IMG/VR virus record: IMGVR_UViG_3300044641_003190
Coordinates: 1 to 64,000 of that record
DNA length: 64,000 nucleotides
Reading direction: 5' to 3' (one strand)
DNA from: a virus
Position numbers and translations under genes: made by a program
The notes under the pieces: generated by a model
Told to the model about the DNA's origin: nothing
The model's database searches: none
What the model saw: the letters and a program-made list of their open reading frames with translations, nothing else
Shown here: positions 4,382-24,584 of the stretch, piece after piece
How the letters are laid out: the number at the start of each line of letters is the position of its first letter
Position numbering within the stretch: position 1 is the stretch's first letter

Positions 4382-4804
4382 ATGGTTACAACTTATACAT
4401 GGGATCTTTTCAAAGACCCATTTTTCATAGGGTTCGATAGAGCCCTGGATACCTGGAATCACGTCCAGAGTTCATCCACAGTTACAAATTACCCACCATA
4501 TAATCTAATCAAGGTAGATGAGGACAACTTTATTGTTGAACTTGCTTTGGCTGGATTTACCAAGACGGATATTGATATTTCAGTGTCTGAAGGAAAACTC
4601 ATCGTAAAGGGAGAGACAAATACGGAGGATAACGATTCGAAGTTTATCCACCGTGGTATCGCTGCCCGTAAATTTACCCGTGAGTGGGCCCTTGGTGAAT
4701 ATATGGAGGTAAAAGCAGCTGAGCTAAAGGATGGTATGCTAAAAATTGAAATTGAGCGTATTCTTCCAGAAGAAAAGAAGCCTAGACAAATAAAAGTTAA
4801 ATAG
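4382..4804 (+). CDS. Small heat shock protein Hsp20 (IbpA-like)
   Basis: NYPPYNLIK, ELALAGF, HRGIAARKF, AELKDGMLKI. Confidence 0.95.
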   Translation: MVTTYTWDLFKDPFFIGFDRALDTWNHVQSSSTVTNYPPYNLIKVDEDNFIVELALAGFTKTDIDISVSEGKLIVKGETNTEDNDSKFIHRGIAARKFTREWALGEYMEVKAAELKDGMLKIEIERILPEEKKPRQIKVK

Positions 4805-6088: not shown

Positions 6089-6159
6089 AGCGAGTGACCA
6101 GAATCGAACTGGCACTATCTGCTTGGAAGGCAGAGACACTACCATTATGTAACACTCGC
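6089..6159 (-). tRNA. tRNA-Gly(TCC)
   Basis: GCGAGTG/CACTCGC acceptor stem, TCTGC-CTTCCAA-GCAGA anticodon arm, GTTCGATTC T-loop; CCA not encoded. Confidence 0.95.
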
Positions 6160-7396: not shown

Positions 7397-7489
7397 AATA
7401 TTAGTTTATCGGCTAAATAGGACCAAGTCAACTATTTTAAAAAAAATATGCCTGTGGTAGACTTAATATATTCTGAAGCGAAGGGTTAC

Positions 7490-8464
7490 ATGCATATAAG
7501 CTTTTTTACGTCTGAGTCTGGATATAATGCCACTGTTGGCTATGGTCAGGCTGGAAAAGGCGTAATATCATCATTACAGAGCTTGGGACACTTAGTTACA
7601 GCCACAAACCCTAAAGCTGACATTCACCTAAATTTTGTTCAACCAGTATATTATGAGTATATTAGGTCTGATATACATACTATTGGATACACTCCCTGGG
7701 AATCTACTGAGTTGCCAATGTATTGGCTAGAGAATTTTAATAAGTGTGATGAGGTCTGGGCAACTTCCCCAATTGTTGCACAATGGTATTTAGATGCAGG
7801 CGTCAAAAAGCCAGTACGTGTTTATGAGCATGGACTTCACGACATATGGAAGTCTCCCAGGGTTAGAGAAGTAAAAAATAAATTTAGATTTTTGCATATT
7901 GGTGAGCCAGCAGAAAGAAAAGGCGGATCTTTAACAGTAAAGGCATTTATAGAATTATTTGGAGACAATCCAGATGTAGAGTTAACAATTAAGGCACACG
8001 AAGCAAATACAATAAGGCACAAGGACATGTTTGGTAATTTTATTGATATTGCTCAAAGATACCCAAATATAAAAATTGTAAGTAGAGAGATGGAAGACGA
8101 AGAATTACTTCAACTAATGTCCATGCATCATTGTTTAGTATATCCTTCCTGGGGGGAGGGTTTTGGATTTATACCACTACAGGCAATGGCAACAGCAATG
8201 CCAACAATTTGCACAGAGTCTTGGGCTCCGTATAAAGAGTTTATAACTCTAAAGCTTGACTCGACACTAGGAGATTCTCCATGGCCAATGATGCATCCAG
8301 GCAAAATGTACGAGCCAAACATAGAAAATTTAAAGGAATTAATGATGGATGCAATAAACAGTTACAGTAAACACTCTGCAATTGCCCTGAAAAACACAAC
8401 AAAGATTTATGAAAAGTATAATTGGATAGATTTAACTAAAAAAGCTTTTGAACACCTAGTATAA
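7490..8464 (+). CDS. Glycosyltransferase, GT-B/GT4-like
   Basis: RKGG and PSWGEGFGFIPLQAMA (E-x7-Q) motifs; start moved to 7490 (SD GAAGGG, TGGTAGACT promoter upstream). Confidence 0.85.
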   Translation: MHISFFTSESGYNATVGYGQAGKGVISSLQSLGHLVTATNPKADIHLNFVQPVYYEYIRSDIHTIGYTPWESTELPMYWLENFNKCDEVWATSPIVAQWYLDAGVKKPVRVYEHGLHDIWKSPRVREVKNKFRFLHIGEPAERKGGSLTVKAFIELFGDNPDVELTIKAHEANTIRHKDMFGNFIDIAQRYPNIKIVSREMEDEELLQLMSMHHCLVYPSWGEGFGFIPLQAMATAMPTICTESWAPYKEFITLKLDSTLGDSPWPMMHPGKMYEPNIENLKELMMDAINSYSKHSAIALKNTTKIYEKYNWIDLTKKAFEHLV

Positions 8465-8555: not shown

Positions 8556-10478
8556 ATGTCATTACCATCAGCTTACCAAGAGTTTATCGCTCTATCAAGA
8601 TACGCAAGATACATAGATTCTGAAAATCGTAGAGAAACTTGGGGTGAGACTGTTGATAGATATTTTAATTTTATTATCGAGCACTTGTCAAAAAACTATT
8701 CTTACAAGCCAGAAGATAAATTAGTTAATGAATTAAAAAAAGCAGTTTATGGGTTAGACGTAATGCCATCTATGAGATCTGTTATGACTTCTGGAGCCGC
8801 ACTAGATAGAGACCACGTTGCTGGATACAATTGTGCGTTTATGCCAGTAGATAGCCCTAAGACATTTGATGAAGCGATGTATATTCTTATGTGTGGTACA
8901 GGAGTAGGATTCTCTGTTGAATATAAATATATTAATAAGCTTCCATCTGTTCCAGAGTCGCTAGAAAAATCATCAACTGTTATAACTGTTGAGGACTCTA
9001 AAACTGGATGGGCTAAGGCATACAGGGAATTGCTGGCACTACTTTGGTCTGGACAGATACCAACTATTGATATTAGTAAGTTGAGACCAGCAGGAGCAAG
9101 ACTTAAGACAATGGGCGGAAGATCATCTGGACCACAACCACTTGTAAACCTATTTGATTTTACAATTAAAGTTTTTAAAAATGCTGTAGGAAGAAACTTG
9201 AAGCCAATTGAATGCCATGACATTATGTGCAAAATTGGAGAGATTGTTGTTGTTGGTGGAGTAAGGAGATCTGCAATGATTTCTTTATCAAATATTAATG
9301 ATATTGAAATGGCACAGGCAAAGGTTGGAAACTGGTGGGAAAATAATTCACAAAGAGCTCTTTCAAATAACTCCGTTGCGTATTCAAGAAAACCAGAAAT
9401 GGCACAGTTTATTACAGAGTGGAAAAACCTGTACGACTCAAAGTCTGGGGAGCGTGGTATATATAATGTTGCAGCAGCACAAGCACAGGCAGCCAAGTAT
9501 GGAAGAAGAGATCCAGAGATACATTATGGAACTAATCCATGTTCAGAAATCATTCTAAGACCCTATCAATTTTGTAACCTATCAGAGGTAGTTCTTCGTG
9601 AGAACGATACTGTGGAGCAGGTAGAAAATAAAGTAAGATTGGCCACAATCCTAGGAACATGGCAATCAACACTGACTGACTTTAAGTATTTGCGTAAAAT
9701 CTGGAAAGATAATACAGAAGAAGAAAGACTTCTTGGTGTATCTCTAACTGGACAATTCGGACACAAGTTTTTTTCTGGAAAAGAAGGAATAGAAAAACTA
9801 GAAAAAACACTATCATCTCTTAGAGAATATGCAAGAAAGACAAACTCTGCAGAAGCAGAAAAAATTGGAATTCCAGAGTCAGCAGCAATAACTTGCGTAA
9901 AGCCATCTGGAACAGTTTCTCAACTAGTTGGGGTATCTTCTGGAATGCATCCGTGGCACTCTGAATATTATATTAGAACAGTAAGAGCCGACAATAAAGA
10001 TCCACTTACAGAGCTAATGAAGTCATACAACATTCCAAGCGAGCCAGACGTAATGAAGCCAGACTCAACTACAGTATTTTCTTTTCCAGTAAAAGCTCCA
10101 TCAGGAGCTATACTAAGAAACGAATTAACTGCAATAGAACATTTAAATATTTGGTTAGCATATCAAAGAGCTTGGTGTGAACATAAACCATCAATTACAG
10201 TATCCGTACATGAAAATGAGTGGATGGCAGTAGGAGCATGGGTATGGGAGCACTTTGATGAAGTTTCTGGAATATCATTTTTACCATACTCAGACCACAC
10301 CTACAAACAAGCACCGTATCAAGAAGTTAACGAAACAGAGTACCTAGAGCTATTAGCTAAAATGCCTTCAGTTATTAGATGGGAAGACCTATCCTTTTTT
10401 GAAAAAGAAGACATGACCGTTGGATCACAAACTCTAGCCTGCACATCCGACTATTGTGAAATTGTAGACATATCTTGA
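8556..10478 (+). CDS. nrdJ: Class II (adenosylcobalamin-dependent) ribonucleotide reductase
   Basis: YNCAF, GTGVGFSVE, VVGGVRRSA, TNPCSEI, TCVKPSGT, C-terminal C-x4-C; monomeric RTPR-like size; no NrdB partner nearby. Confidence 0.92.
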   Translation: MSLPSAYQEFIALSRYARYIDSENRRETWGETVDRYFNFIIEHLSKNYSYKPEDKLVNELKKAVYGLDVMPSMRSVMTSGAALDRDHVAGYNCAFMPVDSPKTFDEAMYILMCGTGVGFSVEYKYINKLPSVPESLEKSSTVITVEDSKTGWAKAYRELLALLWSGQIPTIDISKLRPAGARLKTMGGRSSGPQPLVNLFDFTIKVFKNAVGRNLKPIECHDIMCKIGEIVVVGGVRRSAMISLSNINDIEMAQAKVGNWWENNSQRALSNNSVAYSRKPEMAQFITEWKNLYDSKSGERGIYNVAAAQAQAAKYGRRDPEIHYGTNPCSEIILRPYQFCNLSEVVLRENDTVEQVENKVRLATILGTWQSTLTDFKYLRKIWKDNTEEERLLGVSLTGQFGHKFFSGKEGIEKLEKTLSSLREYARKTNSAEAEKIGIPESAAITCVKPSGTVSQLVGVSSGMHPWHSEYYIRTVRADNKDPLTELMKSYNIPSEPDVMKPDSTTVFSFPVKAPSGAILRNELTAIEHLNIWLAYQRAWCEHKPSITVSVHENEWMAVGAWVWEHFDEVSGISFLPYSDHTYKQAPYQEVNETEYLELLAKMPSVIRWEDLSFFEKEDMTVGSQTLACTSDYCEIVDIS

Positions 10479-10519
10479 TCTATTGTGTATAATTAATATA
10501 AATAGAATGGAGAAAAAAA

Positions 10520-10987
10520 ATGAATAAAAAAATAAATAAAAAAATATTAATAGTTTTATCTGTTATTATTATTTCTTTCATTGGGTTTCCAGTGGTAAGT
10601 AAAAATAATTCAAATTGCATAAACCTATATGTTGATTATAGTGTACTGGACAATAAAACAAAACTAACCAAATGCTTAGAGGCCTCAGCCAATACAAATG
10701 CTTTAGATCTATTAAAGGGTGCTAACCTAACAATAGAAGGAACTAAGAAATATGGCGACGCAGTTGTTTGCCGAGTAAACGGATTACCAGATATATCTAT
10801 TGAGTCATGTGAAGATATGCCATCAGGAAAAGCATATTGGGCAATTATAATAAAAGAAAAACAAATTTTACCTTTTCCAACTAAAGAGTGGGGCTGGGGT
10901 CAGCTTGCCATAAATCAACAATATCTAAATCCTGGGGATTCAATAGGTTTAGTGTGGGCTAACAATGGAGAAGTAGTATTCCCATGA
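10520..10987 (+). CDS. Exported DUF4430/transcobalamin-C-like protein (putative B12 binder)
   Basis: N-terminal TM/signal; ALDLL..., YGDAVVCRVNGLP, YWA, W.W...I....LNPGDSIGLVW beta-grasp pattern; sits between nrdJ and pduO. Confidence 0.6.
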   Translation: MNKKINKKILIVLSVIIISFIGFPVVSKNNSNCINLYVDYSVLDNKTKLTKCLEASANTNALDLLKGANLTIEGTKKYGDAVVCRVNGLPDISIESCEDMPSGKAYWAIIIKEKQILPFPTKEWGWGQLAINQQYLNPGDSIGLVWANNGEVVFP

Positions 10988-11118
10988 AACTATTAGATAG
11001 ACATGTGGAACAAAAGTCTACTTACAAAGTAATAGTTCAACTTTCTTTAACTTTGATATGCTTATACATAGCAAACTCTAAAACAGTAGACATCTGGCGT
11101 TCTTTGACTGGACACTAA
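10984..11118 (+). CDS. 44-aa single-TM peptide (not in ORF track)
   Basis: MKLLDRHVEQKSTYKVIVQLSLTLICLYIANSKTVDIWRSLTGH; ATGA overlap upstream and TAATG overlap downstream. Confidence 0.7.
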   Translation: MKLLDRHVEQKSTYKVIVQLSLTLICLYIANSKTVDIWRSLTGH

Positions 11119-11687
11119 TGGTTAACCTAACTCGTATTTATACAAAAACAGGGGACGACGGAACCACTTCACTTGGAGATATGAGTAGAACTTCTAAAAA
11201 CGATCCAAGACTCGAAGCATTTGCAACAGTTGATGAATCTAATTCATACATAGGGGTTAGTATTCTTCATGTAAAAAATGAAGAAATAAGGTTACTGCTT
11301 TTAAAAATTCAAAACGACTTGTTTGATGTGGGGGCAGACCTGTGTACCCCAGTTGTAGATAATCCAGAAATTAAACCACTAAGGGTTACACAAGATCAGA
11401 TAGAATATCTAGAGTATCAAATAGACAAATATAATAAACACCTAAAACCACTCAGATCATTTGTTTTGCCAAGTGGTTCTTCGTCATCCTCACATTTACA
11501 TGTTGCCAGAACTATTGTTAGAAGGTCAGAAAGGTGTGCCTGGTCAGCCATATCCTCATTTGGTTCTGGGGTCAGCGTGTTAACTGCAAAGTATCTAAAT
11601 CGTTTGTCTGACCTGTTGTTTGTTTTAGCTAGATACGAAAATATAGAATTTGGAGATAATTTGTGGGTTCCTGGAGGTCCAAAGTAG
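11118..11687 (+). CDS. pduO: ATP:cob(I)alamin adenosyltransferase, PduO type
   Basis: IYTKTGDDGTT, TVDESNS, IQNDLFDVGADL, LHVARTIVRRSER, YLNRLSDLLFVLAR. Confidence 0.95.
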   Translation: MVNLTRIYTKTGDDGTTSLGDMSRTSKNDPRLEAFATVDESNSYIGVSILHVKNEEIRLLLLKIQNDLFDVGADLCTPVVDNPEIKPLRVTQDQIEYLEYQIDKYNKHLKPLRSFVLPSGSSSSSHLHVARTIVRRSERCAWSAISSFGSGVSVLTAKYLNRLSDLLFVLARYENIEFGDNLWVPGGPK

Positions 11688-11752
11688 GGTTACTATAAAA
11701 TCAGTCTAGAACTGTTTTTATGATAAAATGGAATTATCTTGGAGGTATATAA

Positions 11753-12106
11753 TTGATGGCAGGAATTAAAAATTGGAAGGTTGATCAAGCCGCTAATTTT
11801 CGTTTTAGCATAGTCTACAAAGACCCAGACGGAGACCCAATAGACCTAACACAATACCAAGTTTATATGGATATAAAATCAGCTCCAGGATCTAAAAAGA
11901 TCCTTGCTTCCTGTGCCATAGGAGACGGAATAGTTGTTACTCCACTTCTCGGAAAAATTGACGTAAACGTTAATGCAGATAAAACAAAAGTTATTGCCTA
12001 TCCAAAATCTGCTTATGATTTAATTATTGTAACTGCAAGCGGTGTCGTAACAAGACTGCTTGAAGGATGGCTAGACGTTTCTAGAGCGGTAACAATAAAT
12101 GACTAA
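11753..12106 (+). CDS. Putative virion protein (BppU/LtfC-like Ig fold)
   Basis: DPDGDPIDLT and AYDL..VTRLLEG pattern; first gene of the fibre array. Confidence 0.55.
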   Translation: MMAGIKNWKVDQAANFRFSIVYKDPDGDPIDLTQYQVYMDIKSAPGSKKILASCAIGDGIVVTPLLGKIDVNVNADKTKVIAYPKSAYDLIIVTASGVVTRLLEGWLDVSRAVTIND

Positions 12107-12554
12107 TTACATAGACAACTCTAATATTATAGATATTACTACCACTGAAAATGAGGTAATAATATCCGATACTGGTCAGCCAGGTCCAAGAGGTAATTCA
12201 ATACTTAATGGAACACAAGTTCCAACTGCTAACTTTCCAGCAAATGCCGTAGAGGGTGATTTTTACCTAAAGGTACCAGAGTACTTATTGTATGGCCCAA
12301 GAACATATGCTGGCAACTGGGGAACCCCAATTGATCTCTTTACCCTACCAGAATCTGTATTTACCTTTACCCAAGAGATTTCAAATACCACTTGGAATAT
12401 ACCATTTTCTCTGCATAAACTGCAGTTTAAACCAAACGTAACCGTAGTGGATAATAATGGATATCAGGTAGAGGGTCACGTCCAGTACCAGAATGATAAT
12501 TCTGTTATAATTAGTTTCGCAGCAGGTTTTTCTGGAAAAGCATACCTGTCGTAA
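12099..12554 (+). CDS. Putative virion fibre/decoration protein
   Basis: GQPGPRG and GDFYL motifs; C-terminal FSGKAYLS domain. Confidence 0.6.
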   Translation: MTNYIDNSNIIDITTTENEVIISDTGQPGPRGNSILNGTQVPTANFPANAVEGDFYLKVPEYLLYGPRTYAGNWGTPIDLFTLPESVFTFTQEISNTTWNIPFSLHKLQFKPNVTVVDNNGYQVEGHVQYQNDNSVIISFAAGFSGKAYLS

Positions 12555-12580
12555 TCTTAAATACCTAGGAGTAATAAACA

Positions 12581-13888
12581 GTGGCACGTAAATTTTTAAC
12601 GTCGATAGATATGACGGGTCTGGAAATCCAGAAACTCCGTATAGAGAACGCTACTTCAAATCCAACAGTACCTTCTGGATCAGAAACAGTATTCAAGGGT
12701 AGAGTCTACTTTGACTCAACAACAAACAAATTATTTTATTACAATGGAACAGCATGGGTTTCATCTGGACAAATGTCCATTACTCTTGGCGGAGACCTTT
12801 CTGGAACAGCAACAACAAATGCTGCTGGAGAGATTACGCTTAATGCCACAATCACAGCTAACTCCGTAGAACTTGGTACAGATACAACAGGAAATTATGT
12901 AGCAACACTAGCTTCTTCTGCTGGAACAATTACAATTACAGGTTCTGGTTCAGAAACTGCCGCAGTAAATATTGATCTTCCTACAACTGGTGTAACCGCT
13001 GGTTCATATGGATCAACAACAAAAATTCCTACATTCACAGTAGACTCAAGAGGTCGTTTGACCGCTGCTGGTGAAGTAGATGTAGCAACTAATCTTTCAA
13101 TAGCAGGAGATACTGGAACAGACACAGTAAATCTTCTTACAGATACACTAACAGTATCTGGTGGAGAAGGTATCGATGTAGCTGTAACAAATAATACAAT
13201 TACGGTATCTGCAGAAGATGCAACTACTACCAATAAGGGTGTAGCATCATTCGCAGACGCTGACTTTACAGTATCATCTGGTGCAGTATCAATAAAGAAC
13301 GTAAACCTTGGAACGCAGACAACAGGAAATTATGTTGCTGGAATTACTGGAACGGCAAACGAAGTTACAGTTACTGGTTCTGGATCAGAAAATGCAAGCG
13401 TAACAATTGGACTTCCAGATGACGTAACTATTACCAATAACCTTCTTGTTGGCGGTAACTTAAATGTAACTGGAACAATTAACTCTGTTAATACAACACA
13501 GGTAAACATTGTTGACAATAAGATTAACCTTAATACAGACTTTACTGGAACACCAACAGTAGATGCTGGAATTAGAGTAGAGCGTGGCTCAGAAGCAGAT
13601 GTTGAAATTCTATGGAATGAAACAGACAATGCATGGACACTTACAAATAATGGTACAAACTATAATGCTATAACTAGAAAATATTCTACAACTATAGGAG
13701 ACGGTACCGCAACATCATTTACAGTAACACACAACCTTGGAACGAGAGAAGCAACAGTCCAGATTTTTGATTCTTCTACATTTGAGTCAGTAGAGGCTGG
13801 TGTGGTTAGAACAAGCACATCTGCAGTCACAGTATCTTTTGCAGTAGCACCTGCGTCTGGAGCTTATAAGGTAATAGTAGTAGGGTAG
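12581..13888 (+). CDS. Tail fibre-like protein
   Basis: Thr/Gly-rich; duplicated LGTxTTGNYVA...GSGSE motif; C-terminal VTHNLGT domain. Confidence 0.7.
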   Translation: MARKFLTSIDMTGLEIQKLRIENATSNPTVPSGSETVFKGRVYFDSTTNKLFYYNGTAWVSSGQMSITLGGDLSGTATTNAAGEITLNATITANSVELGTDTTGNYVATLASSAGTITITGSGSETAAVNIDLPTTGVTAGSYGSTTKIPTFTVDSRGRLTAAGEVDVATNLSIAGDTGTDTVNLLTDTLTVSGGEGIDVAVTNNTITVSAEDATTTNKGVASFADADFTVSSGAVSIKNVNLGTQTTGNYVAGITGTANEVTVTGSGSENASVTIGLPDDVTITNNLLVGGNLNVTGTINSVNTTQVNIVDNKINLNTDFTGTPTVDAGIRVERGSEADVEILWNETDNAWTLTNNGTNYNAITRKYSTTIGDGTATSFTVTHNLGTREATVQIFDSSTFESVEAGVVRTSTSAVTVSFAVAPASGAYKVIVVG

Positions 13889-13891
13889 TAA

Positions 13892-15589
13892 ATGTCTATT
13901 AAATTTAAGTTACCTGTAAATTTAGTAGCTTTAGCCCAAGACCCAGTGTCAGCTAACGCTGGGGATATATATTATAATACAGCATTAAATTCTTTTAAAT
14001 ACTATAATGGAACCGCATGGGGTCCAGTATCATCTTCATTAACTTCTGAAGAAATTCAAGATGCAACAGCAACACTATTAAGTCACTCTAATCATACAAA
14101 TATAACAGCAACATATGACGATGCAAACAACCGTGTTGTTTTAACTGCTGAAGATGCAGTAAAAGTTCAATTTACCCCACCAACAACAGCTTCAGTCGGA
14201 GATGTTTGGTTTGATAATCAAACTGGAGAGTTTTATGTATATGATGGATCGTTTTGGGTTCAAGTATCTGGAGTAACAGGACCTACAGGACCCACTGGAC
14301 CTGCAGGTGTAGCTGGCCCTACTGGCCCCGCAGGACCTACTGGAGCCACTGGTACAACTGGTTCACAAGGAATACAAGGTGTGCAGGGTGAGCAGGGAAT
14401 ACAAGGTGTTACTGGTGCCTCTGCTGGAGTAAAGTGGTCATTCATAACTGGAACTACAGATTCAGACCCATCTTCTGGTAATTTTAAATTCAATAGTGCA
14501 GTTCCACTAACCGTAACAAATATTTATGTAAGCAATACAGATAAAATATCTGTATCCCAGTTTGACTGGATAGGAAGTTGGGATGACTCAACATCTTCAA
14601 CAAGAGGACACATAGTAATATCTGGTGAATCGGAATCTAAAAATTATGTTTTTGCAATTAATGGATCAGTAACTTCCGCTTCTGGATATTATAAGGTTCC
14701 AGTAGCATATGTTTCTGGTTCTACATCTATTCCAACAAATAATAGCAATATGTTATTTGTTGTTACTAGAACTGGTAATCAAGGAGCTACTGGCCCTACT
14801 GGTGCACAAGGAGAAACTGGTCCACAAGGAATACAGGGAATACAAGGAGCAACAGGAGCAACTGGCGCTACAGGACCAACTGGACCACAAGGTCCGACGG
14901 GACCACAAGGACAGGCTGGAGCATCAGTCACATTAAAGGGTAGCGTTGCTGCAGTTATTAATTTACCTTCAAGCGGAAATACAATAGGAGATTCATGGAT
15001 TGTAGATGCAGACGGAAATCTTTATGTTTGGAATGGAACTAGTTGGACAGATGCTGGACAAATAGTTGGGCCAACTGGACCAACAGGAGCAACTGGCGCA
15101 ACTGGCGCTACAGGACCAGCTGGTCCACAAGGTGAACAAGGAATACAAGGAGTTCAAGGAGCTACAGGCTCTACAGGCGCCACAGGTGCTACAGGTGCCA
15201 CAGGTGCTACAGGACCAGGTGTTGCAGCGGGAGGATCTACAGGACAGTATCTTGTAAAATCAAGCAATACAGATTATGCAACAGAATGGTCTAGCATTGC
15301 AGGAGGCCTATCACCACAATCAGTATCTACAAACATAACACTATCGGCAAGCACAAGATATTTTGTAGATACCACAGGAGACAGAAGCCTTACTTTGCCA
15401 GCCACACCAGCACTAGGAGCTGAAATAGAAATTTTAGATGCATCTAACAATGCATCAGTTAACGATGTTATTATAAATAGAAACGGTGAAAAAATAAATG
15501 GTGTTGCTGACAATGCATCATTAGATATAAGTGGATTTTCAGTATCATTTATATATACTGGATCTACTTATGGATGGAAGATGAAATAA
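13892..15589 (+). CDS. Collagen-like fibre protein
   Basis: Three Gly-X-Y tracts (about 14270-14420, 14780-14920 and 15070-15220) separated by globular modules. Confidence 0.85.
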
Positions 15590-17397
15590 TGGTAATAAAT
15601 CTATCTAATTCACAACCACAAGGTCCAAAATCTACAGAGACCTTTGAGAGTAAGACTATTATAGGATCACAAAATAAAATGGGATTAAAAAGTGGTAATA
15701 GTGCTAATAGAACACAGTCTCCAGTAGAGGGAGAAAACTATTTAAATACAGAAACAGGAAGCCTAGAAATATTTAAAAACTCTGCATGGACATCCCTAAT
15801 TTTACTACCAGATACTGTAACAAATTTAGTAGCAACAAATCAAGGTAGTAGTAGGCCTTACAATAATGGACAAGTATCATTGTCATTTGAACCAGGTGTA
15901 GTACTTGGAACTTCATATACTTCAACTTCTAATCCAGGGGCTATAACAACAACATCAAGCTCTACTCCTATAATAATAACTGGATTACAATCTAATACGG
16001 CATACACATTTTCAGTTGTTGCATCAAGTCCGCAAGGTGCATCCCAGCCAAGTTTGGCATCAAACTCTATTACAGTTACAACGGTTCCTCAATCTCCAAC
16101 AATTGGAACAGCAACGCCAGGAGATTTATCAGCTTCTGTTTCTTTTACTCCTGGTGCTACTGGAGGGTCAGCAATAACATCTCATACCATAACAGCAAAC
16201 CCTGGTAATATAACTGCCTCTGGTTCTTCATCTCCAATTACAATTTCTGGATTAACAAATGGAGTTACTTATACAATAACAGCTTCATCTACAAATGCTA
16301 ATGGTACATCCTTAAGTAGCGGTTCTACAACAGTTACTCCAATAGCGCCATTTTTAATAAATAAATCTGTTCCAGATTTATTTACCGCAGCAGAGTCGTT
16401 TTCTCATCCAGATCCAGTTGTTGGAATTCCAACTGCTGGAGGAACACTATCAGTAAATAGCGTTTCACTTGGATCTTATGATTATGTTAAAAGAAATGGA
16501 CCGCTCACAGTATTTAATTTTTCATCGGATGACTGGTTTACTGTTACAGAAGATAGCAGATCGGCCTTTGTCTACATTGAAGGAAATTTAACAATAAATA
16601 CTGGACAAATATTCAAGCCATCAAAAAGAAAATTATTTACATGTATTTACGTTAATGGAGACCTTACTCTTAATGGAGAAATTTCTATGACTGCTCGTGG
16701 TGCAAACCATTCTACAAGTGGGTCAAATATAAGCCCTGGAGAAATTTTAATTAAAACTGGTACATATAGTAGTGTTACAAACCCTAGAGTTCCCGCATCT
16801 GGTGGTTCAGGAGGAACTGGCGGAGTAGATCCAGATGGTGCATGGGGTAACAGTGGTGTAGGTACCAACGGCGCCGCAGGAACAGCTGGAGGAACTGGAG
16901 GAGGAGCTGGTGGATCACATTACACTCCAGTACAGCCAACAAATTTTTCACGAGGAGGAAACGGATCTGCTGGAACTTCATTTAGCGGTGGATCTGGTGG
17001 TGGAGATGTATTTTCTGGATACTTTAGTGGAATGAATCCAGATGCACAAACAAACGGTGGTTACGGAGGAGACTCACATAACTATTATTCAAGTTTTCCT
17101 GGGCAAAATGGTGGAGCTGGAAATCCAACTGGAAGATCTTATTACGGAACGGGCAACCCAGGTGCGCTGGGAACTTCTCCAGTAACTGGTACTGGCGGAG
17201 TTTTAATTATTTTTGTTAATGGTACACTTTCAACTGGTGGAACTGGAACTATAACTGCACAAGGTGCATCACATGGTCAAGCATCAGGTGGTGGATCAAT
17301 AACGGTTATGGTAAAAACAGATATGGGTCCAACACCAAATGCTTCTGCAATTAACAGCGGAGGCGCAGGAACAGCAAGGAAACTATTGTGGACATGA
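15589..17397 (+). CDS. Fibronectin type III plus Gly-rich fibre/adhesin
   Basis: Two FN3 repeats (ITGLQSNTAYTFSV, ISGLTNGVTYTIT); Gly-rich C-terminal domain; start moved to the TAATG overlap at 15589. Confidence 0.75.
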   Translation: MVINLSNSQPQGPKSTETFESKTIIGSQNKMGLKSGNSANRTQSPVEGENYLNTETGSLEIFKNSAWTSLILLPDTVTNLVATNQGSSRPYNNGQVSLSFEPGVVLGTSYTSTSNPGAITTTSSSTPIIITGLQSNTAYTFSVVASSPQGASQPSLASNSITVTTVPQSPTIGTATPGDLSASVSFTPGATGGSAITSHTITANPGNITASGSSSPITISGLTNGVTYTITASSTNANGTSLSSGSTTVTPIAPFLINKSVPDLFTAAESFSHPDPVVGIPTAGGTLSVNSVSLGSYDYVKRNGPLTVFNFSSDDWFTVTEDSRSAFVYIEGNLTINTGQIFKPSKRKLFTCIYVNGDLTLNGEISMTARGANHSTSGSNISPGEILIKTGTYSSVTNPRVPASGGSGGTGGVDPDGAWGNSGVGTNGAAGTAGGTGGGAGGSHYTPVQPTNFSRGGNGSAGTSFSGGSGGGDVFSGYFSGMNPDAQTNGGYGGDSHNYYSSFPGQNGGAGNPTGRSYYGTGNPGALGTSPVTGTGGVLIIFVNGTLSTGGTGTITAQGASHGQASGGGSITVMVKTDMGPTPNASAINSGGAGTARKLLWT

Positions 17398-17771
17398 TAG
17401 ATAAAAACAAAATATATTTTTTTCATAATATATATGGAGATGAACAAGAACTTTTAAATACAATTCCAGAAAACGTTGTCGCCGTACCATTTGGCTGGTC
17501 AGAAGAAGCAGAGTCAAATAGAAATGCCATTATGAGAGAATTAAATGTTTCTGTTTCTAGTATACCTTGCGTAGTGGCATACATAGAGGAGCATTATGCA
17601 GATAGCTCATTTTTTCCAAATTTACAATTTTTACCAGAAAATGATCCACGAAGAGAAAAAGCAGAACATTTGGTATATGCAAAGTGGACATTTTTTGATA
17701 TACTAAATATGGAAAAGCCATGGAACTGGCAAGACATATTAAATAAAATTAATAACTATCATAAACTATAG
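17394..17771 (+). CDS. Hypothetical protein
   Basis: ORF track; ATGA overlap at 17394. Confidence 0.7.
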   Translation: MIDKNKIYFFHNIYGDEQELLNTIPENVVAVPFGWSEEAESNRNAIMRELNVSVSSIPCVVAYIEEHYADSSFFPNLQFLPENDPRREKAEHLVYAKWTFFDILNMEKPWNWQDILNKINNYHKL

Positions 17772-17782
17772 AATAGGAAAAA

Positions 17783-18487
17783 ATGTTTAAAAAAATATTT
17801 TTTATACCAAAAAATAAAGAAGTTTCAAATTTATTAAAAACCCCCTATCCTGCAAAAAACATAATACCTGATTGGTATAAAGAATCAGAACTATTTATGG
17901 GTTCAGATCGTTTACAGGTAGATAGATATGCAACAAATGCTGGTTTAAAACATTGTATGTCATACCTAGATGCAATGGTACACGGATACATATACGAACT
18001 TTGGACAGACATACATGTGTCTAATGGAGAAAATGGAATACAAATTAGTTGGACAAACACTCCAGACCCTATAGTTAAAAGAACAAAAGACCTGGGAGCT
18101 AAAATACCAAGACCAACAGAAATGTATGAAGATATGTTTAATTGGGTTTTACAATGGGGTGCTAAAGCGCCCAAGGGGTATAGCCTATTAATGACTCATC
18201 CCCTTAATAGAACGGACCTGCCATTCTATACCCTGAGTGGAATAGTTGATTCTGATAACTATATGGGTGAAGGAAAGGTACCGTTTTTTATTAAAAAAGA
18301 CTTTACTGGAATTATTCCAGCTGGAACCCCAATTGTTCAAATTATTCCAATAAAGACTGATGAAGTCTGGAAATCGGAAAAAGCAGAGCATTTAATGCAG
18401 GAGCGAGATAAGCAGCAATGGCTATTAAGAACAAGCATTACTGGATACTATAAAAAAGTTTTTAGAAGGTCTAAAATATTCAAATGA
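17783..18487 (+). CDS. Conserved phage protein (DUF6065/dUTPase-like C-terminal signature)
   Basis: PDWYK, GYSLLMTHP, GIVDSD, IPAGTPIVQIIP. Confidence 0.55.
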   Translation: MFKKIFFIPKNKEVSNLLKTPYPAKNIIPDWYKESELFMGSDRLQVDRYATNAGLKHCMSYLDAMVHGYIYELWTDIHVSNGENGIQISWTNTPDPIVKRTKDLGAKIPRPTEMYEDMFNWVLQWGAKAPKGYSLLMTHPLNRTDLPFYTLSGIVDSDNYMGEGKVPFFIKKDFTGIIPAGTPIVQIIPIKTDEVWKSEKAEHLMQERDKQQWLLRTSITGYYKKVFRRSKIFK

Positions 18488-18501
18488 GGTATAATTAGAA
18501 T

Positions 18502-19392
18502 ATGGCCACAATTTTTCCTTCCAGCCCCACGCTAAACCAGGTATACCAAGGGTACATTTGGAACGGTGAAGCATGGAAAGTAATAGACAATAGCGTAGAA
18601 AAAGCACAAGATGACGTTGCCTCCTTATTTACACATAATCTACATACAAATGTAAGTGCTACCTACGATGACGCAAACAATAGAATTGTTTTATCAGCTG
18701 CATCAGCTACAGTTACAGCAGCATCTAAAATATCACAAGAGGTTATAAATAATACTGGGGCAACAATTAATAAAGGACAAGCGGTATATGCTTCTGGAGC
18801 AGTTGGAGCGTCTGGGAAAATAAGAGTTTCTCTTGCATCAAATTCAGGAGAAGCGACATCATCTAAAACATTTGGAATTTTAGAAAACACATTAACAAAT
18901 GGATCATCTGGAACGGTAGTTACAGAGGGATTGATAGAGGGCATTGATACATCAACAGCTCAAGAAGGAGATCCCGTATGGTTAGGCCCAACAGCAGGAT
19001 CATTAATATTTGGAACAGCAAATAAACCAGTATCCCCTGCTCACTTAGTATTTATTGGAATAGTTATAAGAGCACAACAAAATACTGGGTCTATATTTGT
19101 CAAAGTTCAAAACGGATTCGAGATAGGCGAACTTCATGATGTTGCTATTACTAGCCCAGTTAATGGAGCCGCAATATTATTTAATTCAACTACTGGACAA
19201 TGGGAAGATGTCGACATTTCAACAATTTATGCCCCAAAGAACAATCCAACATTTACTGGAACAGTGCAGGTAGGATCGGGCGGAATTAGGTTTGCCGATA
19301 ACAGCGTACAAACTAGCTCAGCCGATGTAAGTCAATTTGCCACAAAGGCAGAACTGGAGGATCTAGAAGCCCTAGTACTCGCTGGCTTATAA
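18502..19392 (+). CDS. Putative fibre/decoration protein
   Basis: FPSSPTLNQ..WNGEAW N-terminus, NNTGATINKGQAVY domain, ELHDVAIT repeat. Confidence 0.65.
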   Translation: MATIFPSSPTLNQVYQGYIWNGEAWKVIDNSVEKAQDDVASLFTHNLHTNVSATYDDANNRIVLSAASATVTAASKISQEVINNTGATINKGQAVYASGAVGASGKIRVSLASNSGEATSSKTFGILENTLTNGSSGTVVTEGLIEGIDTSTAQEGDPVWLGPTAGSLIFGTANKPVSPAHLVFIGIVIRAQQNTGSIFVKVQNGFEIGELHDVAITSPVNGAAILFNSTTGQWEDVDISTIYAPKNNPTFTGTVQVGSGGIRFADNSVQTSSADVSQFATKAELEDLEALVLAGL

Positions 19393-19425
19393 TACCAGTA
19401 ATGCTATACTTCTATAGAGGTAAAC

Positions 19426-20334
19426 ATGTCACTTAATTTCACAAATCTTGAAGCAACAATCAATGCTAAGCTCAATTCGCTTACTGCAACAGTAACCGCT
19501 GCATCAGCAGCAGGTGGCACAGTAACTTATACAGCAAACAACGCATTTGCAGTAGGACAAACAGTAACAATTACTGGATTGTCTACAGCAGCATTTAATC
19601 TACAAGGCGTTGCGGTAGCAACAAAATCTCCTACACAGTTTACAGTAACAAATGCAGCTACTGGAACAGCGGTAACAGGAGCATCAGGAGTAGCAACAAT
19701 CATTGTTGACTCAAAAGAACTTTTAATTCAAATGAAGGCCCTGGAAGCGGCCACACAAAATTTATCATTAGGAAAAGTAGTTGCTGAGGGTTTATACCAA
19801 CAGGGTCTCATTCAGACAACAGCCAACTCAGCTCTATCTACATATAATGCAACAACTGCAGCAGCAACAGTACAAATCAATGCATTGATCGCACAACTCG
19901 GAGGAGTTAATACTCAAGCTATCGTAGACCTTGTAACAGCAAAATTAGCAGAAATTAACTCTGCTACAACTACAGCAATTAATAATATTAGCTCGGCAGC
20001 ATCCGCTGCACAAACTACTGCCGTTAACGCAGTTTCAGCCCAACAGACAACATCTGTAAATGCTGTAACTTCAGCCCAAACAACAGCAACTACTGCCATT
20101 ACTTCAGCACAATCAACAGCTGTTTCTGCAGTTGGCACTGCTGGTACAAATGCGACTAATACTGCAACAGCAGCCATAACAACTGCAAAAAATGCAGCGA
20201 TAACAGAAATTAATACAGCTCTAACAGGAACGGGAGCAGCACAGATATCTGTATCTTTGAATGATCTAGATGGTCGATTAGACCTGCTAGAAGCAAACAG
20301 CCCACAGGCACTTATCTACGCCCTGACAGACTAG
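19426..20334 (+). CDS. Ala/Thr-rich coiled-coil virion protein
   Basis: Helical A/T repeats; N-terminus paralogous to 20425-20979. Confidence 0.65.
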   Translation: MSLNFTNLEATINAKLNSLTATVTAASAAGGTVTYTANNAFAVGQTVTITGLSTAAFNLQGVAVATKSPTQFTVTNAATGTAVTGASGVATIIVDSKELLIQMKALEAATQNLSLGKVVAEGLYQQGLIQTTANSALSTYNATTAAATVQINALIAQLGGVNTQAIVDLVTAKLAEINSATTTAINNISSAASAAQTTAVNAVSAQQTTSVNAVTSAQTTATTAITSAQSTAVSAVGTAGTNATNTATAAITTAKNAAITEINTALTGTGAAQISVSLNDLDGRLDLLEANSPQALIYALTD

Positions 20335-20424
20335 TATTATGAAGCAAAAAAATAAAAAAACAGTCTCAAAAAGCCTACAAATAAAGGGTTTGACAGAGCA
20401 GAAAAGGGATGGTAAAATTTAAAC

Positions 20425-20979
20425 ATGACACTAAGCTTCACTAACTATAGCACAGTACTGCAAGCAAAATTAAACGCAGTAACTTCAAGCACAACTCCGC
20501 AGGACTTGTTGCTTATATCAAAGTCTGTACAAACTACCGTTGGAAACATTGTGGTAGCAGATATCCAGTCTACTGGAGCATCTCAGGTAGCGCTAGTTCA
20601 GTCAGCAGGTACATCACAAATTTCAGCTGTAAACTCAGCAGGTAGCACAAAATTAACAGAACTTCAGAATTACTACAACTCAGTAGTTTTGGGGGCTCCA
20701 GCCGCTCTAGATACTTTAGATGAATTGGCAGCAGCTCTCGGAGACGATGCAAATTTCGCCTCCACAGTAACAACCGCCTTAAATGGAAGGATCCAGAAAT
20801 CGACCCTTACAACGAAAGGTGATATAATTGTTGCAAGCGCTTCATCAACACCAGTTAGAGTTGGAGTAGGTCAGAACTCATATGTTTTGACTGCAGATTC
20901 TTCAACAGCAAGTGGAGTTACATGGACTCGTGTAGCAGATAGCTCGACAAAAATTTTAGCCCTAATGGGTGCATACTAA
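20425..20979 (+). CDS. Fibre-like protein
   Basis: LDTLDELAAALGDDANFASTVT and TTKGDIIV..VLTADS..GVTW modules. Confidence 0.7.
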   Translation: MTLSFTNYSTVLQAKLNAVTSSTTPQDLLLISKSVQTTVGNIVVADIQSTGASQVALVQSAGTSQISAVNSAGSTKLTELQNYYNSVVLGAPAALDTLDELAAALGDDANFASTVTTALNGRIQKSTLTTKGDIIVASASSTPVRVGVGQNSYVLTADSSTASGVTWTRVADSSTKILALMGAY

Positions 20980-21014
20980 GCAAAGTAGTATGAGAAAACA
21001 AGGAGAATAAATAA

Positions 21015-23450: not shown

Positions 23451-23452
23451 TA

Positions 23453-24316
23453 ATGTCACTATCATATAACACAAATCAAGAACACCCACTAATGAGCATC
23501 TTGGGACAAAAACCAAAAGCCATTATTCTATCAAGCTCATCATGGATTGCACCAGCAGGTATCGACAAGGTATTTGTTGCAGTAATCGGTGGCGGTGGCG
23601 GTGGAGCAATGGGATTTACTGGCGCAGGATCAGGTGGCGGTGGTGGAGGAGCAGTTGTTCTCGGATACGTACACGTTGAGGCAGAAGAAACATATTTTGC
23701 TACAATTGGTAAAGGCGGAATGCCTGGTTACCAATCTACCACACAAGCACACGGTAAAGTCGGAGGAATTACTAAATTTAATAACATCATTGCATATGGT
23801 GGATTAGGTGGAAGACAAGGTGCTGGTACATCAACAACAGCTGGAATGGGATCTGGCGGAAACGGCGGTCTCGGACAAGGATGGGTATTTTACGATAAAG
23901 CAACACTAGGAACTATTGAAGCAACTGATGGTCAATTTAACCTAGGAGTCGATCCAGGAACATCATCAATGCTATATCGTGGATCCATGAGAAATGGATA
24001 TCCAGGAATTAGCGGAACAAACTCAGGCGGTGGGGGATCAGGAACTGGTATTTCAGAATTCCAGCAAAATGTTGGACAAAACCCTAGAGGTGGAGCTGGT
24101 ATTACAGGTGGAGGACAAGGCGCACTATTTAACGGAGTATTTTATTCTGCAGGTATGGGTGGAGCTGGATTCCTAGGACAAGGTCAAGAACCACATGGAG
24201 AGTATTTCTACTTCGGAGGTGCAGGTGGACTCGGCGGTGGCGGTGGTGGAGCAGGTGGACCAACAAACTTCCCAGGCGGAGAAGGCGGCGACGGCGCAGT
24301 CGTAATTTGGTACTAA
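23453..24316 (+). CDS. Glycine-rich domain fibre protein
   Basis: VIGGGGGG...GGDGAVVIWY architecture. Confidence 0.7.
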   Translation: MSLSYNTNQEHPLMSILGQKPKAIILSSSSWIAPAGIDKVFVAVIGGGGGGAMGFTGAGSGGGGGGAVVLGYVHVEAEETYFATIGKGGMPGYQSTTQAHGKVGGITKFNNIIAYGGLGGRQGAGTSTTAGMGSGGNGGLGQGWVFYDKATLGTIEATDGQFNLGVDPGTSSMLYRGSMRNGYPGISGTNSGGGGSGTGISEFQQNVGQNPRGGAGITGGGQGALFNGVFYSAGMGGAGFLGQGQEPHGEYFYFGGAGGLGGGGGGAGGPTNFPGGEGGDGAVVIWY

Positions 24317-24327
24317 GGAGAATATAA

Positions 24328-24537: not shown

Positions 24538-24555
24538 TAATTAATAAATAAATTT

Positions 24556-24583
24556 AAAGGCCAGTCGAAAGACTGGCTTTTTT
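24556..24583. terminator. Intrinsic terminator between convergent genes
   Basis: AAAGGCCAGTC-GAAA-GACTGGCTTTTTT. Confidence 0.85.
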
Positions 24584-24584
24584 A

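What the first reader, a model, noticed from the sequence alone, without database searches (positions are those of the whole stretch)
8556..11687. Phage-encoded cobalamin capture-activate-use module (nrdJ, DUF4430-like binder, TM peptide, pduO)
Seen: a class II RNR is followed directly by three translationally coupled genes (ATGA and TAATG overlaps): an exported beta-grasp-like protein, a 44-aa TM peptide and a full-motif PduO adenosyltransferase. Known: NrdJ requires adenosylcobalamin, PduO makes it from cob(I)alamin and ATP, and DUF4430/transcobalamin C-terminal-like domains are linked to B12 binding and uptake loci. Inference: the phage scavenges B12 at the cell surface and activates it to fuel its own dNTP supply in a host that probably depends on external B12. 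Phage nrdJ is common, but a linked cofactor supply chain is unusual.
Basis: partly seen in the sequence, partly recalled or inferred. Interest (0 to 1): 0.85.

Follow-up and report, generated by a model that had tools for sequence, protein, structure and literature searches.

The report
Phage vitamin B12 capture-and-activation cassette
An uncultured tailed phage carries, inserted at the end of its B12-dependent ribonucleotide reductase gene, a mobile three-gene cassette (an exported protein folded like the B12-binding half of human transcobalamin, a tiny conserved peptide, and the enzyme that makes coenzyme B12) that most likely secures the cofactor for phage DNA-precursor synthesis.

Summary
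The window holds nrdJ (8556-10478), a 155-aa exported protein (10520-10987), a 44-aa peptide (10984-11118) and pduO (11118-11687), joined by ATGA and TAATG overlaps in a tailed phage. NrdJ is RTPR-like (closest solved structure 1l1l). PduO is a full-length PduO-type adenosyltransferase. The 155-aa protein matches no Pfam model, DUF4430 included. A confident model (pLDDT 88.8) matches only the beta domains of transcobalamin, intrinsic factor and haptocorrin, plus 3u7z (Z 10.2-11.0; next fold 6.2). Its actinobacterial relatives are fused to alpha/alpha toroids, as in transcobalamin.

The cassette recurs in at least 80 IMG/VR contigs: peptide 79/80, pduO 75/80, nrdJ adjacent wherever the contig allows except two. 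There it sits beside an NrdJ only 26% identical to this one. In this phage's own lineage, 62 of 62 relatives lack it at this site, and junction remnants show it was inserted into the last nrdJ codons.

B12 binding, surface capture and host B12 auxotrophy are inferred, not shown. The phage record has no transporter gene. The closest known system is the Lactobacillus nrdJ-cbrS-cbrT-pduO cluster. This scan has already noted the cassette on at least 10 other genomes. I found no paper describing it.

The parts
8556..10478 (+). nrdJ: class II (adenosylcobalamin-dependent) ribonucleotide reductase of the monomeric RTPR type, 640 aa
   Evidence: TIGR02505 RTPR 299 bits (equivalog cut-off 340) and PF02867 49.6 bits. 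Best solved relative is 1l1l RTPR, E 5e-42, with the TNPC(S/G)EI and CNL cysteine motifs aligned. 78-84% identical to NrdJ of at least 600 IMG/VR contigs.
10465..10493 (+). sigma-70-like promoter candidate (TAGACA-17-TATAAT) at the left end of the inserted cassette
   Evidence: 11/12 consensus match. The number of such sites in the region equals the shuffled expectation, so this is only a hint.
10520..10987 (+). X155: exported or membrane-anchored protein, 155 aa. N-terminal Lys-rich stretch and hydrophobic segment (residues 9-27), then a transcobalamin-beta-like SLBB beta-grasp domain (residues ~31-150) with four invariant Cys (33, 52, 84, 97)
   Evidence: No Pfam or NCBIfam hit. AF2 model pLDDT 88.8. 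VIA-align wide: 2bb6 Z 11.0, 3u7z 10.5, 5no0 10.5, 2pmv 10.2, 4kkj 10.2, next 6.2. Hydropathy 2.77 over residues 9-27 with four Lys before. Invariant Cys in phage and cellular relatives.
10984..11118 (+). TM44: 44-aa peptide with a basic N-terminus, one hydrophobic helix (residues ~12-30) and a near-invariant C-terminal tail (T/S)(V/I)D(I/V/L)WRS(L/M/V)TGH
   Evidence: Present in 79/80 cassette loci. Alignment with invariant Q19, N31, D36, W38, R39, S40, T42, G43, H44. Synonymous codon variation at invariant residues. 169 relatives, none in a known family. Hydropathy 1.49 is borderline for a membrane helix.
11118..11687 (+). pduO: PduO-type ATP:cob(I)alamin adenosyltransferase, 189 aa
   Evidence: PF01923 200.6 bits covering 1-170/171; TIGR00636 172.6 bits (cut-off 108). 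Best solved relatives 2g2d/6wgs, E 7e-63 over residues 2-188.
11688..11755 (+). right insertion junction: remnant of the ancestral nrdJ 3' end, then the ancestral nrdJ-o117 intergenic region and the ribosome-binding site of the next (fibre-module) gene
   Evidence: Aligns with the nrdJ terminus and intergenic region of L086, the closest relative without a cassette at this site.

Best explanation
The region is a virus-borne vitamin B12 supply cassette serving the phage's own class II ribonucleotide reductase.

Shown: NrdJ belongs to the adenosylcobalamin-dependent RTPR-type reductases, and PduO belongs to the enzymes that make adenosylcobalamin from cob(I)alamin and ATP.

Inferred: X155 is exported through its N-terminal signal or anchor. 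It displays a disulfide-stabilised transcobalamin-beta-like domain on the outer face of the membrane of a Gram-positive (probably freshwater actinobacterial) host, where it binds corrinoids. The co-translated small peptide inserts next to it with its conserved His-ending tail outside, and helps to hold the ligand or to dock on the host importer. A host transporter (probably an ECF-type B12 importer) brings the corrinoid in. PduO adenosylates it, and may hand it directly to NrdJ, sustaining dNTP synthesis during infection of a host that cannot make B12.

The three genes move as one unit between phage lineages. In this genome they were inserted into the last codons of nrdJ.
For: Enzyme identities.

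Fold of X155: a confident model, and two searches in which only transcobalamin, intrinsic factor and haptocorrin beta domains and 3u7z stand out. Z is 8.9-9.9 against 5.7 and 10.2-11.0 against 6.2 across 48,161 chains. Foldseek top ranks agree. The model has the two-strand hairpin (72-75/79-86) directly after the helix (61-67). PMC1796856 gives this as the hallmark of the transcobalamin-like SLBB clade.

Relatives: a phage-only profile reaches actinobacterial surface proteins, some fused to alpha/alpha toroid domains. That is the transcobalamin architecture.

Export: Lys-rich N-terminus, strongly hydrophobic segment and four invariant Cys.

Linkage: peptide 79/80, pduO 75/80, nrdJ adjacent in 67/80. 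Of the other 13, 11 are cut by contig ends. L079 has nrdJ 21 kb away. The same cassette sits beside two NrdJ lineages only 26% identical.

Insertion at the nrdJ 3' end in this lineage.

Precedents: the nrdJ-cbrS-cbrT-pduO cluster in B12-auxotrophic L. delbrueckii (PMC5997447); a DUF4430 gene next to rtpR in L. rhamnosus (PMC9963975); bacterial transcobalamin-like SLBB proteins predicted to scavenge B12 in non-producers (PMC1796856). The isolated transcobalamin beta domain has been crystallised with cyanocobalamin (5np4 title).

Host ecology: acI freshwater Actinobacteria lack B12 synthesis and have ECF modules behind cobalamin riboswitches (PMC5301498).
Against: No binding or transport has been measured, and a shared fold does not show function.

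The DUF4430 sequence model does not match. Profiles find no solved relative by sequence.

A related transcobalamin-like pair in L. sakei has been proposed to handle heme instead (bioRxiv 10.1101/864751).

X155 lacks the alpha domain that supplies most B12 contacts in transcobalamin.

The phage record (about 60% complete) has no transporter gene.

The only cellular relative whose context I could fetch lies next to a DUF998 membrane protein, with no riboswitch or B12 gene in about 2 kb.

Most phages with this same NrdJ do without the cassette, so it is not required for NrdJ function.

The host is inferred, not identified.
Confidence: 0.6

Rival explanations
1. Only PduO serves NrdJ, by cofactor synthesis, repair or chaperoning inside the cell. 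X155 and the peptide are a surface module with another ligand or role, such as heme or another tetrapyrrole, a cell-wall glycan, superinfection exclusion, or sequestering B12 away from competitors. They travel with pduO only because they were captured together from a host operon.
For: SLBB domains bind diverse ligands, including polysaccharides in Wza and ComEA (PMC1796856). A transcobalamin-like pair in L. sakei was proposed to bind heme. The PF14478 sequence model does not match. Loci L071, L073 and L074 keep nrdJ-X-peptide without pduO, and L127 keeps nrdJ-peptide without X or pduO, so the parts can be uncoupled.
Against: The fold match is specific to B12-carrier beta domains and stands well above Wza/MoaD-type beta-grasps (Z 10-11 against at most 6.2). 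X is retained between nrdJ and pduO in 75 of 80 loci and beside two unrelated NrdJ lineages. The same order occurs in the B12-salvage cluster of Lactobacillus.
Confidence: 0.2
2. The cassette is a host-derived 'moron' that boosts host B12 metabolism in general (for example methionine synthase or mutases) or is nearly neutral. Its position beside nrdJ reflects a recombination hotspot, not a functional link.
For: The cassette is accessory: absent at this site in 62/62 relatives and from 4 of 5 long relatives. It lies about 21 kb from nrdJ in L079 and at a contig end far from nrdJ in G009. A possible own promoter sits at 10465-10493.
Against: Every cassette contig with enough sequence also has a class II RNR. 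Adjacency arose beside two NrdJ lineages 26% identical. All four proteins are under purifying selection across dozens of divergent phages.
Confidence: 0.12
3. The small peptide is not a membrane protein. It is a soluble or peripherally bound adaptor acting on NrdJ or PduO, for example in cofactor hand-off through its His tail. X155 acts independently of it.
For: Its helix is only moderately hydrophobic (mean 1.49). It is the component most faithfully kept with nrdJ (L127: peptide alone overlapping the nrdJ stop). It has no known family.
Against: It is translationally coupled to X in essentially all loci. The basic N-flank and uncharged 19-residue core fit a single-pass helix.
Confidence: 0.08

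Closest known systems
[quoted passage not shown] 2018, PMC5997447; predicted by Rodionov et al. 2009 as cited there)
   Same: Same logic and gene order: an AdoCbl-dependent RNR first, a PduO adenosyltransferase last, and two uptake-related genes between them, in an organism that cannot make B12. In L. rhamnosus a DUF4430 protein gene lies next to rtpR (PMC9963975).
   Different: Here the cluster is in a phage and moves as a cassette. The gene in the cbrT position encodes a 41-54-aa single-helix peptide, not a six-helix S-component. No ECF module is on the phage record. X155 does not match DUF4430 by sequence. I did not verify what CbrS is.
Transcobalamin-like clade of the SLBB beta-grasp superfamily (Burroughs et al. 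2007, PMC1796856): beta domains of transcobalamin, intrinsic factor and haptocorrin (2bb6, 5no0/5np4, 2pmv, 4kkj) and bacterial 3u7z
   Same: Same fold, including the hairpin insert after the helix. Z 10.2-11.0, rmsd 2.6-2.9 A over 94-98 residues. Secreted or surface-anchored. Relatives fused to alpha/alpha toroids. The clade is predicted to scavenge B12.
   Different: 10-18% sequence identity, and no HMM-level link to PF14478 or to any PDB chain. A stand-alone beta domain with four conserved Cys. Partnered with a small peptide instead of an alpha domain. Phage-encoded.
Pfam PF28005 'SCO2322' family of Actinomycetota
   Same: The broad X profile hits P0416 (1,295 aa) at E 1e-21, and P0416 carries precomputed PF13243 + PF28005. 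An ESM Atlas neighbour cluster has PF28005 on 27% of members. A phage-only profile reaches actinobacterial relatives at E 1e-21 to 1e-6.
   Different: PF28005 is not in the local Pfam copy, so membership could not be scored. I found no paper on SCO2322, so the family adds no functional knowledge.
PduO-type ATP:cob(I)alamin adenosyltransferases (PDB 2g2d/6wgs, which from my own knowledge are the Mycobacterium tuberculosis enzyme; also L. reuteri PduO 3ci1 and human MMAB 2idx)
   Same: Full-length match, E 7e-63 to 2g2d/6wgs and 1e-27 to 3ci1/2idx.
   Different: Encoded by a phage. PduO is nearly absent from sequenced phage isolates: 15 of 50,697 records, mostly short unannotated contigs.

Membership tests
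PduO-type corrinoid adenosyltransferase (PF01923 / TIGR00636) | Full-length match above the curated cut-offs | tested here: met
   PF01923 200.6 bits (cut-off 24), profile 1-170/171. TIGR00636 172.6 bits (cut-off 108.45). 2g2d E 7e-63.
PduO-type corrinoid adenosyltransferase (PF01923 / TIGR00636) | ATP:cob(I)alamin adenosyltransferase activity | not testable with these tools
   Needs an enzyme assay or complementation.
Class II RNR, monomeric RTPR type (TIGR02505) | Score above the equivalog cut-off | tested here: not met
   299 bits against a cut-off of 340.05, although the match spans 19-723/724 of the model. The NrdJ of the other cassette lineage (L001) passes at 355.9 bits.
Class II RNR, monomeric RTPR type (TIGR02505) | Closest solved relative is RTPR, with the thiyl-radical Cys motif and partner Cys conserved | tested here: met
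   1l1l E 5e-42. TNPCSEI aligns with TNPCGEI and FCNLSEV with PCNLFEV.
Class II RNR, monomeric RTPR type (TIGR02505) | Dependence on adenosylcobalamin | not testable with these tools
   Inferred from family membership only.
Pfam DUF4430 (PF14478) | Match to the family HMM | tested here: not met
   No hit for X155 or 16 homologues at E<=10, none in 20 distant relatives, and none in a six-frame scan of the whole record at E<=10, while control genomes ring.
Transcobalamin-like clade of the SLBB beta-grasp superfamily (PMC1796856) | Beta-grasp core with a beta-hairpin insert after the helix; structural similarity to transcobalamin-type beta domains | tested here: met
   DSSP of the pLDDT 88.8 model: helix 61-67, then strands 72-75 and 79-86. 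Z 10.2-11.0 to 2bb6, 5no0, 2pmv, 4kkj and 3u7z; next fold 6.2.
Transcobalamin-like clade of the SLBB beta-grasp superfamily (PMC1796856) | Signal peptide or surface location | tested here: met
   Four Lys, then a 19-residue segment with hydropathy 2.77. Cellular relatives have lipoboxes or C-terminal anchors. This is prediction only.
Transcobalamin-like clade of the SLBB beta-grasp superfamily (PMC1796856) | Association with an alpha/alpha toroid domain (fused or adjacent) | tested here: inconclusive
   Absent from the phage protein and cassette. Present in the actinobacterial relatives P0177, P0216, P0237 and P0416.
Transcobalamin-like clade of the SLBB beta-grasp superfamily (PMC1796856) | Operon with CbiO/CbiQ-type (ECF) transporter genes | tested here: not met
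   No CbiQ or ABC ATPase in the 74.5-kb record, which is about 60% complete. The host side could not be examined.
Transcobalamin-like clade of the SLBB beta-grasp superfamily (PMC1796856) | Binds cobalamin or another corrinoid | not testable with these tools
   Cobalamin is not an available ligand in the complex predictor. Needs ITC or spectroscopy.
Pfam PF28005 (SCO2322) | Match to the family HMM | not testable with these tools
   The family is not in the local library. Only indirect links exist.
nrdJ-cbrS-cbrT-pduO type B12 salvage cluster | nrdJ and pduO flank the uptake genes in one cluster | tested here: met
   Conserved in 67 or more loci. The cluster is described in PMC5997447.
nrdJ-cbrS-cbrT-pduO type B12 salvage cluster | A CbrT-like ECF S-component (about 190 aa, six helices) | tested here: not met
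   The gene in that position encodes 41-54 aa with one hydrophobic helix and no family match.

The most novel reading that the evidence does not exclude
The stand-alone transcobalamin-beta-like protein and the His-tailed micro-peptide form a minimal two-piece corrinoid receptor. The peptide's invariant extracellular tail (…DIWRSLTGH) replaces the transcobalamin alpha domain, perhaps giving the cobalt an axial His ligand. The peptide also docks the loaded receptor onto the host ECF module, so a virus re-wires a host vitamin importer with only about 200 residues of its own. This would be the first virus-encoded vitamin receptor and a new class of accessory subunit for ECF-type uptake.
Probability: 0.15. 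Interest if true: 0.85.

Novelty: new variant of a known kind. Interest (0 to 1): 0.6.

Why it matters
Phage class II RNRs are common, but they are assumed to live off the host's coenzyme B12 pool. A widespread, mobile cassette that adds a surface B12-binder-like protein and the adenosylating enzyme would mean that some viruses manage a scarce, community-traded vitamin for themselves. That would make B12 availability a direct control on viral replication in lakes dominated by B12-auxotrophic bacteria.

It also offers two compact, experimentally tractable unknowns: a stand-alone transcobalamin-beta-like domain and a strictly conserved 44-residue peptide. Both could reveal how Gram-positive bacteria hand corrinoids to ECF importers.

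The insertion scars and the lineage-to-lineage transfer give a clean natural experiment on the value of the cassette.

Tried and rejected
- Both genome-contig scans found no relative of X155 or of the actinobacterial relative P0138. An alignment of cellular relatives was too divergent for pattern search. The genome search cannot draw relatives for a virus record.
- The first metagenome scan (P0129) found nothing. The second (P0274) gave two contigs of about 1.9 kb with an SDR gene, the X-like lipoprotein gene and a DUF998 membrane protein gene. They have no riboswitch, so they are uninformative.
- Sequence profiles A1 and A2 against PDB chains gave only chance-level hits.
- hmmscan at E<=10 gave no DUF4430 match. 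PF28005 is not in the library.
- Complex prediction of X155 with the peptide returned 'no answer' (score 0.00 against a mark of 0.32). This is evidence neither for nor against binding.
- ESM Atlas found no informative neighbour for the peptide.
- The first AF2 model, from 17 close sequences, was mediocre (pLDDT 67) and was replaced by the 53-sequence model.
- Literature searches for phage-encoded pduO or B12 cassettes found no report. The one 'viral + pduO' paper refers to bacterial MAGs. There were no papers on SCO2322.
- The PF02867 six-frame search proved too insensitive for these RNRs. I replaced it with tblastn and protein searches.
- There is no cobalamin riboswitch in the window region or in nine cassette loci.
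- I considered whether tail conservation of the peptide merely reflects the pduO ribosome-binding site, and rejected it. The tail is kept in loci without pduO (L071, L073, L074, L127), and its codons vary synonymously.
Full report
**1. What is there**

The + strand carries four ORFs: 8556-10478 (640 aa), 10520-10987 (155 aa), 10984-11118 (44 aa) and 11118-11687 (189 aa). The sequence shows ATGA at the 155-aa/44-aa junction and TAATG at the 44-aa/189-aa junction. A 41-nt gap with a GGAG ribosome-binding site follows the first gene.

The window is a tailed phage. It has a portal, head protease, major head protein, tail proteins, endolysin, Hsp20, DnaB, primase and Pol III alpha. It lies in an IMG/VR virus record of 74,534 bp that is estimated to be about 60% complete. 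GC content is 0.32-0.39 across the region, with no sharp break.

**2. The two enzymes**

The 640-aa protein is a class II RNR of the monomeric RTPR type.
- TIGR02505 scores 299 bits across nearly the whole model, below the 340-bit equivalog cut-off. The Pfam RNR barrel and the class II insertion domain also match.
- The best solved relative is 1l1l (RTPR), E 5e-42. The TNPC(S/G)EI thiyl-radical motif and the following CNL cysteine are aligned.

The 189-aa protein is a full-length PduO-type adenosyltransferase.
- PF01923 scores 200.6 bits and TIGR00636 scores 172.6 bits, both above cut-off.
- It matches 2g2d/6wgs at E 7e-63. From my own knowledge these are the Mycobacterium tuberculosis enzyme.

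**3. The 155-aa protein (X155)**

*Sequence searches.* X155 has no Pfam or NCBIfam match.
- PF14478 hits none of 17 family members at E<=10.
- It hits none of 20 distant relatives.
- It hits nothing in a six-frame scan of the whole record at E<=10, although control genomes ring.
- Profiles of the family find no PDB chain.

*Fold.* The fold assignment holds.
- A first model (pLDDT 67) gave Z 8.9-9.9 to transcobalamin, intrinsic factor, haptocorrin and 3u7z, against 5.7 for the next fold.
- A second model, built from 53 diverse sequences, is confident: pLDDT 88.8, and at least 95 over residues 31-155.
- In a Foldseek-independent comparison with 48,161 chains, only five reach Z>=8: 2bb6 (11.0), 3u7z (10.5), 5no0 (10.5), 2pmv (10.2) and 4kkj (10.2). 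Their rmsd is 2.6-2.9 A over 94-98 residues. The next chain scores 6.2. Foldseek ranks the same entries first.
- The model has a two-strand hairpin (72-75 and 79-86) directly after the helix (61-67). [quoted passage not shown]

*Export.* Four lysines precede a 19-residue segment of hydropathy 2.77. Four cysteines are invariant in phage and cellular relatives. Both features fit an exported, disulfide-bonded domain. Whether the N-terminal segment is cleaved or acts as an anchor is not known.

**4. Relatives of X155**

The large protein database holds 201 close relatives, none named. No sequenced phage isolate encodes one. IMG/VR holds about 99.

A phage-only profile against 1.84 billion representatives finds 280 proteins. 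The distant ones are actinobacterial surface proteins with lipoboxes or C-terminal anchors.

Several are fused to squalene-cyclase/prenyltransferase-type alpha/alpha toroids. They include a Nocardioidaceae MAG protein that NCBI calls 'terpene cyclase/mutase family'. A toroid plus this domain is the transcobalamin architecture, and PMC1796856 describes the same fusion in bacterial members.

A 1,295-aa relative carries precomputed PF13243 + PF28005 'SCO2322', and an ESM Atlas neighbour cluster carries PF28005. PF28005 is therefore the likely named family, but it is not in the local library and I found no literature on it.

**5. The 44-aa peptide**

It is a real, conserved gene.
- It follows X in 79 of 80 loci, and its start overlaps the X stop in essentially all of them.
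- It comes in 41-46-aa and 54-aa forms. Both share a basic N-terminus, one hydrophobic helix and a near-invariant tail, (T/S)(V/I)D(I/V/L)WRS(L/M/V)TGH.
- The invariant R, S, T, G and H are encoded by two to four synonymous codons across 47 distinct sequences, so selection acts on the protein.
- The tail is kept where pduO is absent (L071, L073, L074). In L127 the peptide alone overlaps the nrdJ stop.
- Hydropathy of the helix is 1.49, which is borderline. Membrane insertion is likely but not certain.
- It has 169 relatives and no known family.

**6. Linkage and mobility**

*Other cassette loci.* In 80 IMG/VR loci found through X, pduO follows in 75 and a class II RNR lies immediately upstream in 67. 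Of the 13 loci without an adjacent RNR, 11 are cut by the contig end. The other two are L079 and L080.
- L079's contig has the window-type nrdJ about 21 kb away.
- L080's 67%-complete contig would, by synteny with L079, end before that position.

I therefore found no cassette in a genome shown to lack a class II RNR.

*Two NrdJ lineages.* The NrdJ next to the cassette in most loci is a different lineage from the window's. It passes TIGR02505 at 355.9 bits and is 26% identical to the window's NrdJ.

*The window's own lineage.* The window's NrdJ type occurs in at least 600 IMG/VR contigs at 78-84% identity. In 62 of 62 with enough downstream sequence, nrdJ is followed directly by homologues of the window's fibre-module genes (11753 onward), with no cassette. 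Four of five long relatives lack X and pduO entirely. One has X at a contig end far from nrdJ.

*Insertion scar.* After the pduO stop, the window resumes with sequence homologous to the last ~20 nt of the ancestral nrdJ, the old intergenic region and the next gene's ribosome-binding site. The ~1.2-kb cassette was therefore inserted into the final codons of nrdJ.

A promoter-like site lies at its left edge (10465-10493), but such sites are no more frequent here than in shuffled sequence. PduO and the peptide each fall into two sequence classes that do not co-vary, which suggests recombination within the cassette.

**7. Mechanism**

*Established from the families.* NrdJ needs adenosylcobalamin, and PduO makes it from cob(I)alamin and ATP.

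*Inferred.* X155 is displayed outside the membrane and binds corrinoids. The peptide sits beside it with its His-ending tail outside. A host importer takes the ligand in. PduO then adenosylates it for NrdJ.

*Support.*
- The fold specificity of X155.
- The conserved gene order.
- Independent association of the cassette with two NrdJ lineages.
- Cellular precedents: the nrdJ-cbrS-cbrT-pduO cluster in B12-auxotrophic L. delbrueckii (PMC5997447), a DUF4430 gene beside rtpR in L. rhamnosus (PMC9963975), and secreted transcobalamin-like SLBB proteins with CbiO/CbiQ genes in B12 non-producers (PMC1796856).

*Host.* The host is probably a low-GC freshwater actinobacterium.
- The cellular relatives of X155 are actinobacterial.
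- PduO is closest to the entry I know as the mycobacterial enzyme.
- The RNR resembles those of Streptomyces phages.
- acI bacteria lack B12 synthesis and have ECF modules behind cobalamin riboswitches (PMC5301498).

This is inference only.

*Weak points.*
- No binding data exist.
- X155 has no alpha domain.
- The phage has no transporter gene.
- A heme role has been proposed for a related pair.
- Many phages with the same NrdJ do without the cassette.

**8. Relation to earlier notes of this scan**

The same cassette has been noted on at least 10 other genomes, with similar readings. I used those notes as leads only.
- The Lactobacillus cluster I verified in the paper.
- The claim that the acI host pair sits behind a B12 riboswitch I could not test, because the tools that reach cellular context were closed or exhausted.

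This window adds three things. It shows the cassette caught as an insertion into nrdJ in a lineage that normally lacks it. It shows association with two NrdJ lineages. It shows a minimal nrdJ-peptide form (L127).

**9. Verdict**

I file this as a new variant of a known kind: a phage-borne, mobile version of the bacterial nrdJ/B12-salvage/pduO cluster. It has a sequence-divergent transcobalamin-beta-like binder and a novel micro-peptide in place of an S-component. I found no publication describing it.

Noticed in passing
L127:6923-7081 (+): In a relative with the window-type nrdJ but no X or pduO, a 52-aa ORF overlaps the nrdJ stop by 4 nt and ends in ...GWRSLTGH, the cassette peptide's tail. 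It is either a remnant of a decayed cassette or a minimal nrdJ-peptide unit. It was the only such case among 80 loci.
   Followed up: partly
L071:5355-11528, also L073 and L074: Variant cassette nrdJ-X-peptide without pduO, followed directly by a 1,154-aa protein that has no NCBIfam match and also follows pduO in L001.
   Followed up: partly
L079:6663-9102 and L079:623-919: In the phage where the cassette lies ~21 kb from nrdJ, it is preceded by small ORFs and a weak S-adenosylmethionine decarboxylase-like gene (TIGR03330, 43.8 bits, below cut-off). The locus also has an array of four tRNA genes.
   Followed up: no
window 6089-6159 (-): tRNA gene (Rfam RF00005, 60.8 bits) between the endolysin-like gene and the SLT lysozyme-like gene.
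   Followed up: no
window 7448-8464 (+) and 24585-25553 (-): Two family-4 glycosyltransferase genes. The first lies just upstream of nrdJ, is conserved in the lineage, and best matches PF20706 'GT4 in conflict systems' (36.6 bits).
   Followed up: no
window 13892-15589 (+): Collagen triple-helix repeat protein (PF01391, 82 bits) within a run of fibre-like genes (11753-30262) that starts directly after the cassette.
   Followed up: no
L084:853-1344 and L085:130-744: A cellular (lipobox-bearing) relative of X155 is followed after 23 nt by a DUF998 multi-pass membrane protein (PF06197, 83.6 bits). It is preceded divergently by a short-chain dehydrogenase gene, and no riboswitch is present. A possible X-DUF998 functional pair.
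   Followed up: partly
L089:4812-5039 and L127:7151-7399: Relatives without the cassette carry a conserved 75-82-aa ORF with a hydrophobic core between nrdJ and the first fibre-module gene. The window has no room for it at that position.
   Followed up: no
window 4382-4804 (+): Phage-encoded Hsp20 small heat-shock protein (phrog_432, 143 bits).
   Followed up: no
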